A stretch of DNA of 32,239 bases from a virus (lineage: Duplodnaviria; Heunggongvirae; Uroviricota; Caudoviricetes): the IMG/VR virus record IMGVR_UViG_2645727843_000011; one strand, given 5' to 3'. Shown in pieces: positions 9,819 through 11,924 of the stretch. Numbering within the stretch: the stretch's first letter is position 1; every line of letters begins with the position of its first letter. Position numbers and translations under genes: made by a program. The notes under the pieces were generated by a model that was given only the letters and a program-made list of their open reading frames with translations, did not search any database and was not told the DNA's origin.

Positions 9819-11924
9819 TTACACCTGTGCGACGTTATACCATGTGCCATTGATGTATTTTTGTATTGGTCTGAATACTGCGGGGTCATCACCATCGACT
9901 TCACCGACAATACCAAGCCCGGTAATTACGTGCCCTGCTTTCTCATACATCACCCCTTTCTGCATGGTCTGGACAACACGTGTGCCAAGTCTGACATCTC
10001 TCACATAGCGGGAATCAAAGTTACCGTAATCCGAGGGATTAACACGCCCCGTAATATTTATGGTTTTATTACTTTGAATGCTACCGGAGACAAAGCGCAT
10101 AACATGGACGTTATTAGCATAAACATCCAGATTACCGTCGCCATTTTGTTTAAAGCCCGTGTCATTATCACCCAAAACAATCGAGTTACCGCCAAGAGCA
10201 CTGGATGTTCCGATACCCAGTGCACCATTCAATTGACCTCCAGATAATGATAACGCCCCAACCTCAGCAGCAGTCGGTTTAATGTGCGAACTGTAAATTA
10301 CATATACAGTTCCATCTGTCAGGCCTGTTGGTTTATTCGCTGTATAAGATGGTGATGTATGAATCGTTACGCTGGCGTTACTGGTATAATCCCACTGAAT
10401 ATTAACACGTGTGGCGTAATTACCTATTTCAACATAAACATCATAGGTATCACCGGATGTATTCACCCATGCAAAATTAGCAAATCCAACCGATGTCCGT
10501 CGCCATAACGCACCAGTAAGACCTTTTGGATTTCCATTCCCCGCACGAAGAACAAGTTCAGATATACCAGCCTGCATAGGGGAGTTAACATTATATCCGG
10601 CACCACCAATCAGACTTATGTAAACCACGGAACTGGCCTGTGGCATGGTTACAGTTGCTAGCCTGAACCATCCTGTACCACCACTAAAAGACATGGTTGT
10701 TGAATTTGTTGCTCCAATATTGCGCAGGAATAATCTTTTATCAGGAATATCCGCGCCATTTTGATCTTTCTGAAGACGTTTTTCAGCATTGTCATAGGCA
10801 GACTTCACCGCTTTTGGTGTTGCGGCCAGCGTTTCCGAATCACTGTTGGTGGCGCTACTGAGCTGAACAAGCCCTTTTCGCGCTGTGGTGGCATCCTGTG
10901 CAGTGTATTTCCCGTTAGCAAGGTCATACGCGACCTTTACCGCCTTTGGCGTTGCCGCAAGCGTTTCAGAATCACTGTTGGTGGCGCTACTGAGCTGGAC
11001 AAGGCCTTTTCTCGCTGTGGTGGCGTCCTGTGCAGTGTATTTCCCGTTAGCAAGGTCATACGCGACCTTTACCGCCTTTGGCGTTGCGGCCAGCGTTTCA
11101 GAATCGCTGTTGGTGGCGCTACTGAGCTGAACAAGGCCTTTTCGCGCTGTGGTGGCGTCCTGTGCGGTATATTTCCCGTTAGCAAGGTCATATGCTGCTT
11201 TTACCGCTTTTGGTGTTGCAGCGAGCGTTTCAGACGTGCTGTTGGTGGCACTACTGAGCTGGACAAGGCCTTTTCGTGCTGTGGTGGCGTCCTGTGCGGT
11301 ATATTTCCCGTTAGCAAGGTCATATGCGGCCTTTACCGCCTTTGGCGTTGCAGCCAGTGTTTCAGACGTGCTGTTGGTCGCACTGCTTAACTGAGTAAAA
11401 CCTTTTGCGGTCAGCGAGGCGTCCGGGTGACGTCGTGACTGTTCATGTTCTGCAATTTTGTCATCAACGTAATCCTGCGTCGCCATCACCGTTGTGGTGT
11501 CAATGGTCAGCGCCACTGAGGTCACACTGCTGACGATGATGACCATACGGCAGGTCTGCGAACGCCCTGAGCCTTCGGCAAGAGCTGGCTTATAACTTTC
11601 GGCCATGTTCGCCACAGCAATTAACGTTCCCGCATCATCGTACAGGCCAAGCTCACGCATCCAGAAACCGCCCACCTCCGGCGGAATAACCAGCTCTGCG
11701 ATAATATAATTACTGTTTCGTTTGTCCTGGCTGATTTTGTTCAGCGCATGTCGCCAGACTTCGTGGATAAGCCCGGTCTGTCCGGCATCCGGGACAGGCA
11801 ATTTACCACCGCCATCCCCGACGGCCATCGTGGTAATGTTGACCTTCCGCCCTCCCGGTGCGGTTGCCGCTGCCAGCTTTGCTGCACCGGCAGTGGTGAT
11901 AACGGTTCTGAATTTTGTGCTCAT
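9819..11924 (-). CDS. H: Tail fibre protein gpH, 701 aa, with expanded internal repeats
   Basis: N-terminus MSTKFRTVITTAGAAKLAAATAPGG... and C-terminus ...FRPIQKYINGTWYNVAQV recognised as P2 H-like; the middle carries about 4.5 copies of a 44-aa repeat containing SETLAATPKAVK, a tail fibre repeat motif. Confidence 0.9.
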   Translation of the reverse strand: MSTKFRTVITTAGAAKLAAATAPGGRKVNITTMAVGDGGGKLPVPDAGQTGLIHEVWRHALNKISQDKRNSNYIIAELVIPPEVGGFWMRELGLYDDAGTLIAVANMAESYKPALAEGSGRSQTCRMVIIVSSVTSVALTIDTTTVMATQDYVDDKIAEHEQSRRHPDASLTAKGFTQLSSATNSTSETLAATPKAVKAAYDLANGKYTAQDATTARKGLVQLSSATNSTSETLAATPKAVKAAYDLANGKYTAQDATTARKGLVQLSSATNSDSETLAATPKAVKVAYDLANGKYTAQDATTARKGLVQLSSATNSDSETLAATPKAVKVAYDLANGKYTAQDATTARKGLVQLSSATNSDSETLAATPKAVKSAYDNAEKRLQKDQNGADIPDKRLFLRNIGATNSTTMSFSGGTGWFRLATVTMPQASSVVYISLIGGAGYNVNSPMQAGISELVLRAGNGNPKGLTGALWRRTSVGFANFAWVNTSGDTYDVYVEIGNYATRVNIQWDYTSNASVTIHTSPSYTANKPTGLTDGTVYVIYSSHIKPTAAEVGALSLSGGQLNGALGIGTSSALGGNSIVLGDNDTGFKQNGDGNLDVYANNVHVMRFVSGSIQSNKTINITGRVNPSDYGNFDSRYVRDVRLGTRVVQTMQKGVMYEKAGHVITGLGIVGEVDGDDPAVFRPIQKYINGTWYNVAQV
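10790..11390. repeat. In-frame 132-bp tandem repeat array (about 4.5 copies) inside H
   Basis: ggcgctactgagctg recurs at 10851, 10983 and 11115, with degenerate copies at 11247 and 11379 (period 132 bp); the protein shows the corresponding 44-aa repeats; the antisense ORFs 10885..11130 and 11149..11394 in the track are by-products. Confidence 0.85.

What the first reader, a model, noticed from the sequence alone, without database searches (positions are those of the whole stretch)
10790..11390. Expansion of a 132-bp in-frame tandem repeat and a mosaic central domain in tail fibre gene H
The H protein keeps P2-like N- and C-termini but contains about 4.5 near-identical copies of a 44-aa unit carrying the SETLAATPKAVK motif, where I recall fewer copies in P2 H, followed by a central region that does not resemble my recollection of P2 H. 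Perfect tandem DNA repeats are prone to slipped-strand or recombinational copy-number change, which would alter fibre length and possibly host range. Silent differences between copies suggest the array is not brand new.
Basis: seen in the sequence. Interest (0 to 1): 0.5.

Follow-up and report, generated by a model that had tools for sequence, protein, structure and literature searches.

The report
Variable repeat array in tail fibre
The tail-fibre gene of this P2-like E. coli prophage has five copies of a known 44-residue fibre repeat where phage P2 has two, and related prophages carry four, five or six copies with hybrid repeat units at the junctions, so this is an ordinary fibre gene whose shaft changes length by unequal recombination.

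Summary
Gene H (window 9819..11924, minus strand, 701 aa) has a 132-bp in-frame tandem array (TRF 10791-11378, 4.5 copies, 91% matches). It encodes five Pfam PF03406 "phage tail fibre repeat" units; P2 H has two.

The units are not perfect repeats. Adjacent units are 82-95% identical in DNA, and differences among units 2-4 are mostly silent.

Copy number does vary among relatives. Alleles with the same N- and C-terminal parts have 4, 5 or 6 units (657/701/745 aa). Silent-site markers show hybrid units at the junctions, as unequal crossover or slippage would leave. At least two independent contractions and several independent expansions are visible. The 4- and 5-unit alleles occur in complete genomes; the 6-unit alleles only in draft assemblies.

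The "mosaic centre" is really the whole distal half. Residues 385-701 are 96% identical to an S'v cassette of a Mu-like phage's invertible segment, here fused in fixed form with no crossover site.

Any effect on fibre length or host range is inferred, not tested. This is a known kind of gene: the identical protein is in public databases, and mosaic H genes have been described since 1992. Interest is modest.

The parts
9819..11924 (-). Tail fibre gene H, 701 aa
   Evidence: ORF. Pfam PF12571 plus five PF03406 units. Lies between the gpI-like ORF 11935..12465 and the chaperone gene G, as in P2. Identical protein P0022 is on 97 contigs.
11472..11924 (-). N-terminal tail-collar/baseplate-attachment domain (aa 1-151)
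   Evidence: PF12571, 196 bits, profile 1-150/150. 95% identical to P2 H over aa 1-251.
11289..11420 (-). Repeat unit U1 (aa 169-212)
   Evidence: 6 nt differences from P2 U1.
11157..11288 (-). Repeat unit U2 (aa 213-256)
   Evidence: 24 differences from U1, 16 from U3.
11025..11156 (-). Repeat unit U3 (aa 257-300), 'DS...KV' type
   Evidence: 0-1 differences from U3 of L004 and L006, so it is a positional orthologue.
10893..11024 (-). Repeat unit U4 (aa 301-344); the unit missing in 4-unit alleles and involved in the duplications that give 6-unit alleles
   Evidence: 6 silent differences from U3. Identical to L004 U4. Hybrid U4/U5 and U5/U4 units in L006/L093 and L004.
10761..10892 (-). Repeat unit U5 (aa 345-388); its last third (AYDNAEKRLQKDQ) is the Mu-Sc-type junction leading into NGADIP
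9819..10772 (-). Distal cassette (aa 385-701), equivalent to an S'v cassette of a Mu-type invertible segment, fused in fixed form
   Evidence: 93% nt identity and 96% aa identity (over aa 411-701) to Yersinia Muvirus vB_YpM_5. There it lies next to hin and a gix-like site. No gix-like site in the window.
10212..10772 (-). Central module (aa 385-571) that does not resemble P2 H
   Evidence: No similarity to P2 H. tblastn hits in Mu-like (93%), SJ46/P1-like (59%), FelixO1-like (~42%) and T-even gp37 (35-53%) fibres. No Pfam family.
9984..10202 (-). Conserved gp37-like segment (aa 575-647, GDNDTGF...)
   Evidence: Weak PF20744 gp37_trimer hit. PDB 6f45 long tail fibre distal subunit, E 2.4e-5. 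Shared with P2 and P2_AC1 H.
9870..9986 (-). Variable tip patch (aa ~647-685) between conserved DSRYVRDxRLG and RPxQKYINGTWYNVAQV
   Evidence: This is the only diverged part in the 709-aa allele of NCTC9008, which is otherwise 99.3% identical over nt 1-1940.
9288..9815 (-). Gene G, tail fibre assembly chaperone
   Evidence: PF02413 Caudo_TAP, 117 bits. 89% identical to P2 G and 86% to the Mu-like U'.

Best explanation
This is the tail fibre gene H of a P2-like (Peduovirus) prophage of E. coli, built from three modules. (1) A P2-type N-terminal domain anchors the trimeric fibre to the baseplate. (2) A proximal shaft is made of five tandem PF03406 'phage tail fibre repeat' units of 44 residues. 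(3) A distal cassette (aa 385-701) has the same origin as the S'v cassettes of Mu-type invertible segments. It carries the receptor-binding tip and is folded with the help of the downstream chaperone G. The unit number is not fixed. Misaligned homologous recombination or replication slippage between neighbouring 132-bp units adds or removes whole units in frame, so natural alleles with the same ends carry 4, 5 or 6 units. Each unit is kept under purifying selection, since differences between units are mostly silent. Shown here: the anatomy, family membership, copy-number polymorphism, hybrid junction units, and origin of the distal cassette. Inferred: that each unit lengthens the shaft by a few nanometres, and that this affects how the tip reaches its receptor. 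The fibre N-terminal/C-terminal roles and the chaperone role are taken from P2 and Mu literature, not tested here.
For: Array and ORF. Family: PF03406, 325 bits, 5 stretches; PF12571; PF02413 in G. P2 H has 2 units and is 95% identical over the N-terminal part. Allelic series with the same ends: 657, 701 and 745 aa hold 4, 5 and 6 units, with N-domain identity 96-100% and C-part identity 92-100%. By my tally of the contig counts among the top 120 clusters, this is about 99, 565 and 4 contigs. A sister type with a different tip shows 665, 709 and 753 aa, i.e. 4, 5 and 6 units. Hybrid units: L006 U4 has the U4 head and U5 tail; L004 U5 has the U5-type head and U4 tail; these are reciprocal products. 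L005 encodes the same protein as L004 and has identical flanks (0/504 and 0/939 nt). Its extra unit is instead a U4-head/U3-tail hybrid, so it arose by a separate event. L015 lost U4 at a different junction than L006. Further 6-unit arrays have near-identical neighbouring units: L101 U2/U3, L103 U2/U3 and U4/U5, and L100 U3-U5. The 4-unit hybrid allele is present, base for base, in a complete chromosome (JNE23-011, L093 = L006, 0/1974 differences). 5-unit alleles are in complete chromosomes 98208, NCTC9008 and A17. Survey: 76 complete IMG/VR H genes with a >=98% identical N-domain hold 2-5 units, and the same tail type occurs with different unit numbers. Across 150 family representatives most have 1-2 units. 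Distal cassette.
Against: All 6-unit alleles come from draft or metagenome assemblies. None was found in 5,426 complete E. coli genomes, so some could be assembly artefacts of a repeat that is longer than a short read. No read-level data were available, so variation within one lysogen or lysate is untested. The monomer AlphaFold2 model was unusable (mean pLDDT 41, pTM 0.26), so the length added per unit is unknown. No phenotype data link unit number to adsorption or host range. Positional orthology of units across alleles means that changes are occasional on the time scale of about 1-2% sequence divergence. This is not rapid phase-variation-like switching.
Confidence: 0.8

Rival explanations
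1. The copy-number differences are assembly artefacts. The real array is the same length everywhere, and short-read assemblers collapsed or expanded a 660-bp repeat.
For: 6-unit alleles were found only in draft or metagenome assemblies and in no complete genome. Units share identical runs of up to 62 nt, which small-k assemblers can mis-thread.
Against: 4- and 5-unit alleles both occur in finished circular chromosomes. The hybrid 4-unit allele is identical in a draft (L006) and a complete genome (L093). The same 6-unit contigs were recovered from more than one sample. Isolated phages also differ: P2 has 2 units, other deposited phages have more.
Confidence: 0.07
2. The array is a static structural spacer. 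The different unit numbers are old, stably inherited lineage markers with no elevated rate of change and no adaptive meaning.
For: Units are positionally orthologous across alleles (0-1 differences between U3 of different prophages, against 6 between U3 and U4 within one). The window's own U3/U4 duplication is old enough to carry 6 silent changes. 4 units dominates the clade.
Against: Several independent events occurred in near-identical backgrounds. L004 and L005 have 0 differences in 1,443 flanking nt but different extra units. L015 differs from the window by 0/504 and 3/939 nt yet lacks U4. Near-identical neighbouring units in L101, L103 and L100 indicate recent duplications.
Confidence: 0.1
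3. The main role of the conserved repeats is to give DNA homology for swapping distal receptor-binding cassettes between fibres. Copy-number change is then a neutral by-product of the same recombination.
For: The same array occurs with different distal parts (window against L013/L094; the 'Aa-Ad-Af-Ac' array with 313- and 420-aa tails), and the same tails occur with different arrays. In Mu S, as in the window H, a PF03406 unit lies just before the NGADIP motif that starts the variable distal part. 2,303 of 5,426 complete E. coli genomes carry matching sequence, a median of 2 places each, which is a large pool of partners.
Against: The Mu-like Sc unit is only 56-63% identical in DNA to the window's units, too low for efficient homologous exchange with that phage. 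High identity starts only after the array. Strong purifying selection on each unit's protein sequence argues for a structural role. This rival is compatible with the best explanation rather than exclusive of it.
Confidence: 0.3

Closest known systems
Bacteriophage P2 gpH / gpG (tail fibre and its assembly chaperone)
   Same: Same gene position (V-W-J-I-H-G), N-terminal 242 aa 95% identical, same PF03406 unit sequence, similar C-terminal ~135 aa, G 89% identical.
   Different: 5 units instead of 2. The unit-to-distal junction is of the Mu Sc type (AYDNAEKRLQKDQNGADIP) rather than the P2 type (TVMDETNKKAPLNSP...). The distal shaft (aa 389-565) is unrelated to P2's.
Mu-type invertible G segment fibre cassettes (S = Sc + Sv or S'v, chaperones U/U', invertase Gin/Hin); solved Mu fibre structures 5yvq, 9ki1, 8ju3
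   Same: Residues 385-701 are 93% (nt) and 96% (aa) identical to the S'v cassette beside hin in Yersinia Muvirus vB_YpM_5. Mu S has one PF03406 unit followed by the same NGADIP junction.
   Different: The window has no invertase crossover site and no alternative cassette, so the cassette is permanently fused. The Mu fibre has one repeat unit, not five.
Mosaic H genes of other P2-like phages (L-413C, Wphi, P2_AC1, vB_EcoM-12474); horizontal transfer of fibre segments (Haggard-Ljungquist et al. 1992; Sandmeier 1994)
   Same: Conserved N-terminus and extreme C-terminus with an exchanged middle or distal part, as reported for L-413C (PMC7460101) and reviewed by Sandmeier (cited in PMC8986868).
   Different: No deposited P2-like phage in the phage collection carries this distal cassette; the best coverage by a Peduovirus is 71%. 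It is known only from prophages.
In-frame repeat-number variation in other phage fibres: T4 gp37 adhesin duplications (Tetart et al. 1996, cited in PMC3157838) and collagen/coiled-coil length variants in EHEC prophage fibres (PMC3368898)
   Same: Whole-unit, in-frame gain and loss of a fibre segment by recombination between repeated sequence. Length differences are multiples of the repeat period.
   Different: Different repeat family and position: here a proximal shaft unit of 44 aa, not the adhesin tip or a Gly-X-Y/heptad tract. In T4 a host-range effect was shown experimentally; here none was tested.

Membership tests
Pfam PF03406 Phage_fiber_2 (phage tail fibre repeat) | Match to the family HMM above the curated gathering score | tested here: met
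   325.2 bits against a cut-off of 22, with 5 matched stretches; best stretch covers profile positions 1-41 of 42.
Pfam PF03406 Phage_fiber_2 (phage tail fibre repeat) | Tandem units of about 40 residues inside a phage fibre protein | tested here: met
   Five units at an exact 44-aa spacing, aa 169-388.
P2 gpH-type tail fibre | N-terminal tail-collar fibre domain (PF12571) homologous to P2 H | tested here: met
   196 bits, full-length profile match. 95% identity to P2 H over aa 1-251.
P2 gpH-type tail fibre | Gene order baseplate V-W-J-I, then H, then a Caudo_TAP chaperone | tested here: met
   ORFs 13715..14368, 13371..13718, 12458..13366, 11935..12465, H, then G 9288..9815. The order matches P2 and relatives. 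G matches PF02413.
P2 gpH-type tail fibre | Assembles as a trimeric fibre on the baseplate and binds the host receptor | not testable with these tools
   The monomer AF2 model was unusable (pLDDT 41). No multimer prediction or experiment was available.
Mu/P1-type invertible fibre segment (G/C segment) | Distal fibre cassette homologous to Sv/S'v | tested here: met
   96% aa identity to the cassette next to hin in vB_YpM_5.
Mu/P1-type invertible fibre segment (G/C segment) | Inverted crossover sites (gix/cix type) flanking the cassettes | tested here: not met
   No match in the window to the phage's 26-nt site (up to 3 mismatches) or to a degenerate consensus (up to 2 mismatches).
Mu/P1-type invertible fibre segment (G/C segment) | Second, oppositely oriented cassette plus a serine invertase gene | tested here: not met
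   Downstream of G are a DUF5677 ORF and a short tyrosine-recombinase-fold ORF. There is no second fibre cassette and no resolvase/invertase hit among the ORFs scanned. Not every ORF of the window was scanned.
Variable-number tandem repeat / contingency-type locus | Unit number differs among closely related genomes | tested here: met
   4, 5 or 6 units with the same flanks; independent hybrid junctions.
Variable-number tandem repeat / contingency-type locus | Length heterogeneity within a single clonal population, at a rate far above point mutation | not testable with these tools
   No read data. Positional orthology of units suggests occasional rather than rapid change.
Variable-number tandem repeat / contingency-type locus | Unit number changes a selectable phenotype | not testable with these tools
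   There is only an indirect hint: unit number falls as the distal part lengthens (rho -0.69 over 14 tail types, uncorrected for relatedness).

The most novel reading that the evidence does not exclude
The PF03406 array could be a length-tuning module of the fibre. Recurrent gain and loss of 44-residue units by unequal recombination would adjust the reach of whichever distal receptor-binding cassette has been acquired. Short cassettes would be compensated by more units, which would match the fibre to the thickness of the host's O-antigen or capsule layer. On this reading, unit number is an adaptive and fairly fast-evolving host-range determinant in E. coli P2-like prophages. The literature library searched here holds no report of this.
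Probability: 0.2. Interest if true: 0.5.

Novelty: new member of a known kind. Interest (0 to 1): 0.3.

Why it matters
Tail fibres decide which bacteria a phage or an engineered P2/P4 or tailocin particle can attack. This locus gives a clean natural example of two ways a fibre gene changes. One is whole-unit gain and loss in the shaft, with the recombination junctions still readable in silent sites. The other is capture of a distal cassette from a Mu-type invertible segment as a fixed fusion. For fibre engineering it shows that 2 to at least 5 units (6 in draft assemblies) are tolerated between the P2 anchor and a foreign distal part, and that the NGADIP junction is a natural fusion point. For genome analysis it warns that H-gene length differences of 132 bp are real alleles for 4 against 5 units, but need long-read confirmation for rarer sizes. 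It does not reveal a new kind of system.

Tried and rejected
(1) AlphaFold2 on full-length H with a 27-sequence alignment gave mean pLDDT 41.3 and pTM 0.26. The model is unusable, which is expected for a single chain of an intertwined trimer, so I ran no fold search and give no per-unit length.

(2) I looked for a 6-unit allele in complete E. coli genomes using the L004 gene. All top hits split into two pieces, i.e. they have fewer units.

(3) I tested whether H is part of an invertible or shufflon-like system. There are no gix-like sites. The only notable inverted repeats bracket the cargo island downstream of G and do not include H. Rejected.

(4) I tested whether the Mu-like Sc repeat unit supplies DNA homology to the window's units. 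It is only 56-63% identical, so direct homologous exchange with that phage inside the array is unlikely.

(5) The plus-strand ORFs inside the array (10761..11390 and two 81-aa ORFs) are antisense read-throughs of a repeat that lacks stop codons. I treated them as non-genes.

(6) The TPR_20 Pfam hit (23.1 bits, below the cut-off of 25, no stretch passing) was rejected as spurious.

(7) Literature searches for a prior description of PF03406 copy-number variation in P2-like H found none in the held library. The 1992 P2 H paper (PMC206541) is not held.

(8) PADLOC and Pfam scans of the neighbouring cargo ORFs gave no defence-system hits.
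Full report
**1. What is in the sequence**

Tandem Repeats Finder reports a single strong array at window 10791-11378: period 132, 4.5 copies, 91% matches, no indels, score 896. It lies in frame inside a 701-aa ORF on the minus strand, 9819..11924.

Pfam places this protein as follows:
- an N-terminal tail-collar fibre domain (PF12571, 196 bits, aa 1-151);
- five PF03406 "phage tail fibre repeat" stretches (325 bits against a cut-off of 22);
- a weak gp37-like hit near aa 595-642.

The next ORF downstream (9288..9815) is a Caudo_TAP fibre-assembly chaperone. 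Upstream lie the P2-type baseplate genes I, J, W and V. The window as a whole is a P2-like prophage: it has the replication gene A, an integrase, and ORFs of P2-like size and order where sheath, tube and tape measure would lie.

**2. Anatomy of the array**

Read as protein, there are five 44-aa units:

| Unit | Window coordinates |
|---|---|
| U1 | 11420..11289 |
| U2 | 11288..11157 |
| U3 | 11156..11025 |
| U4 | 11024..10893 |
| U5 | 10892..10761 |

The last third of U5 diverges, which accounts for "4.5 copies".

The units are near-identical as protein but not as DNA:

| Pair | nt differences (of 132) | Synonymous |
|---|---|---|
| U3-U4 | 6 | 6 |
| U2-U3 | 16 | 13 |
| U2-U4 | 18 | 15 |
| U1-U2 | 24 | 14 |

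The longest identical run between two units is 62 nt. The excess of silent change indicates purifying selection on each unit.

**3. Comparison with P2**

P2 H (669 aa) has two units. The two proteins are 95% identical over aa 1-251. They have no detectable similarity over window aa ~389-565, and they align again over the last ~135 aa.

**4. Does copy number vary among relatives?**

Yes. A search of 5.8 billion proteins returned many E. coli proteins with the same N- and C-terminal parts but lengths of 657, 701 and 745 aa. These hold 4, 5 and 6 motif copies. By my tally of the contig counts listed for the top 120 clusters, they sit on about 99, 565 and 4 contigs. A sister type with a different tip occurs at 665, 709 and 753 aa.

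At the protein level the variable part is the internal "DS...KV" unit, present once, twice or three times.

Among 76 complete H genes from IMG/VR with a >=98% identical N-domain, 6 have 2 units, a few have 3, about 51 have 4 and 13 have 5. The same distal type occurs with different unit numbers:

| Distal type (aa after the last motif) | Unit numbers seen |
|---|---|
| 419 | 3, 4, 5 |
| 442 | 4, 5 |
| 335 | 4, 5, 6 |
| 327 | 4, 5, 6 |

Across 150 representatives of the wider N-domain family, 94 have one unit, 38 two, 12 three, 3 four and 1 five. So 4-6 units is a feature of the E. coli P2 clade. Within that clade the window's five units are common, and P2 itself is the minority type.

**5. How the number changes**

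Silent-site markers let units be followed across alleles. U3 and U4 of the window are 0-1 differences from the corresponding units of other prophages, so units are positional orthologues. Against that background the odd units are hybrids:

- The last unit of the 4-unit allele (L006/L007) has the head of U4 and the tail of U5.
- The extra unit of the 6-unit allele L004 has the head of the last unit and the tail of U4. This is the reciprocal product.
- L005 encodes the same 745-aa protein as L004 and has identical flanks (0/504 and 0/939 nt). Its extra unit is instead a U4-head/U3-tail hybrid, so it arose by a separate event.
- L015 differs from the window by 0/504 and 3/939 nt and has lost U4 at a different junction than L006.
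- Other 6-unit arrays have neighbouring units that differ at about one of the compared sites: L101 U2/U3, and L103 U2/U3 and U4/U5. L100 has three similar units. These indicate recent duplications of different units.

This is the signature of unequal crossover or slipped misalignment between units. It happened repeatedly.

**6. How far the assemblies can be trusted**

The 4-unit hybrid allele is identical, base for base, in a draft (L006) and in the complete chromosome of strain JNE23-011 (L093). 5-unit alleles are in the complete chromosomes of strains 98208, NCTC9008 and A17, and 4-unit alleles are in RM9245, EC-107 and GPEC464. The 6-unit alleles come only from draft or metagenome assemblies. 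None was found among 5,426 complete E. coli genomes. The 4-versus-5 polymorphism is therefore solid, and the 6-unit class needs long-read confirmation.

**7. The "mosaic centre"**

Nucleotides 1153-2106 of H (window 9819-10772, aa 385-701) are 93% identical to DNA of Yersinia phage vB_YpM_5, a Muvirus. There the segment is a 291-aa ORF followed by a chaperone gene. It lies next to a hin-type invertase and a gix-like site (TTATCTAAAACCTCGGTTTGCAGGAA), so it is an S'v/U' cassette of an invertible segment. Protein identity is 96%.

The constant part of that phage's fibre ends with one PF03406 unit, then DNANARLAKDRNGADIP, then the crossover site. The cassette begins ...LQKNQNGADIPDKKLFLRNIG. The window's H reads ...AYDNAEKRLQKDQNGADIPDKRLFLRNIG. 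This is a fixed in-frame fusion at the NGADIP motif without the crossover site, and no gix-like site exists anywhere in the window.

The central module (aa 385-571) also has relatives in SJ46/P1-like, FelixO1-like and T-even gp37 fibres at 35-59% identity. Solved relatives by sequence are Mu S (5yvq, 9ki1), an S/S' chimera (8ju3) and a T4-type gp37 tip (6f45).

A third level of mosaicism is a variable tip patch (aa ~647-685). It is the only diverged part in the otherwise 99.3%-identical 709-aa allele.

Exchange of H segments with Mu, P1 and other fibres is long known. The 1992 paper by Haggard-Ljungquist et al. is cited in PMC13100340, the L-413C mosaic is described in PMC7460101, and Sandmeier 1994 is cited in PMC8986868.

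**8. Function**

By analogy with P2 and Mu, the N-domain docks on the baseplate, the distal part binds LPS, and the chaperone is needed for folding (PMC11915804; PMC7460101).

The repeat units lie between anchor and distal part, so adding a unit should lengthen the proximal shaft. I could not measure this, because the monomer AlphaFold2 model was unusable (pLDDT 41).

One indirect hint is that unit number falls as the distal part gets longer (Spearman -0.45 over 84 loci, -0.69 over 14 tail types), while total length stays within 642-816 aa. This is not corrected for relatedness and is driven largely by the P2-type 2-unit class. I treat it as an idea, not a finding.

**9. Known or new**

The protein itself is in public databases, annotated as a tail fibre protein (P0022, identical, 97 contigs). 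The repeat is a curated Pfam family, and mosaic H genes are textbook.

In-frame repeat-number change in phage fibres is also known in other systems. Examples are the T4 gp37 duplications (Tetart et al. 1996, cited in PMC3157838) and the collagen and coiled-coil length variants in EHEC prophage fibres (PMC3368898).

I found no paper in the held library describing copy-number polymorphism of PF03406 units in P2-like H genes. The allelic series and hybrid junctions documented here may therefore be a small new observation within a known kind.

**10. Verdict**

Copy-number change by recombination is shown at the level of natural alleles; the effect on fibre length and host range is untested.
- This is an ordinary member of a known family, with a tidy evolutionary record. 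Interest 0.3.

Noticed in passing
window 7334-8867 (minus strand), with flanks 6787-6819 and 9203-9235: The cargo island between sheath gene FI and chaperone G is at the P2 Z/fun hotspot. It holds a DUF5677 protein (8025..8867) and a short ORF with only a tyrosine-recombinase catalytic fold (7334..8020, TTG start). Neither has a PADLOC hit. The island is bracketed by 33-nt imperfect inverted repeats (82% complementary), with a third related copy at 9096-9123. The same gene pair sits beside the 6-unit H alleles L004/L005, while other relatives carry different cargo here (DUF6602 + SIR2_2, SduA_C, fun(Z)).
   Followed up: partly
window 14434-15219 (+): A 261-aa ORF sits on the opposite strand between the tail/baseplate genes, in the orf30 position of P2. 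It has no Pfam or PADLOC hit. The sequence looks membrane-associated (hydrophobic N-terminus).
   Followed up: partly
window 24811-25746 (-) and 25802-26131 (+): ORFs of 311 aa and 109 aa lie between Q (portal side) and replication gene A. Neither has a Pfam or PADLOC hit. They may be further hotspot cargo.
   Followed up: partly
window 9870-9986 (H aa ~647-685): A short hypervariable patch near the fibre tip is flanked by conserved DSRYVRDxRLG and RPxQKYINGTWYNVAQV. It is the only diverged part in the 709-aa allele of NCTC9008/A17, which is otherwise 99.3% identical over nt 1-1940 of H. It is a likely receptor-contact or chaperone-contact segment.
   Followed up: partly
L098 (E. coli PCN033 chromosome, 4367684-4369392): This H homologue is annotated as a frameshifted pseudogene. 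It is 397 nt shorter than the window's gene, i.e. three units plus one base. It is either a decayed prophage fibre or a sequencing error in the repeat.
   Followed up: no
L099 1268-1828 and L002 3949-4060 (Yersinia Muvirus vB_YpM_5): The end of the constant fibre part and the start of the S'v cassette each carry a ~30-aa segment of the same pattern (..A..L.K..NGADIP.K.LF..N.G), one on each side of the gix site. This is a short duplication that could mediate in-frame fusions such as the one seen in the window's H.
   Followed up: partly
window 10761-11390 (+), 10885-11130 (+), 11149-11394 (+): Long antisense ORFs (209 aa and two of 81 aa) run through the repeat array. They exist because the repeated sequence lacks stop codons in those frames, and I treated them as non-coding.
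   Followed up: no
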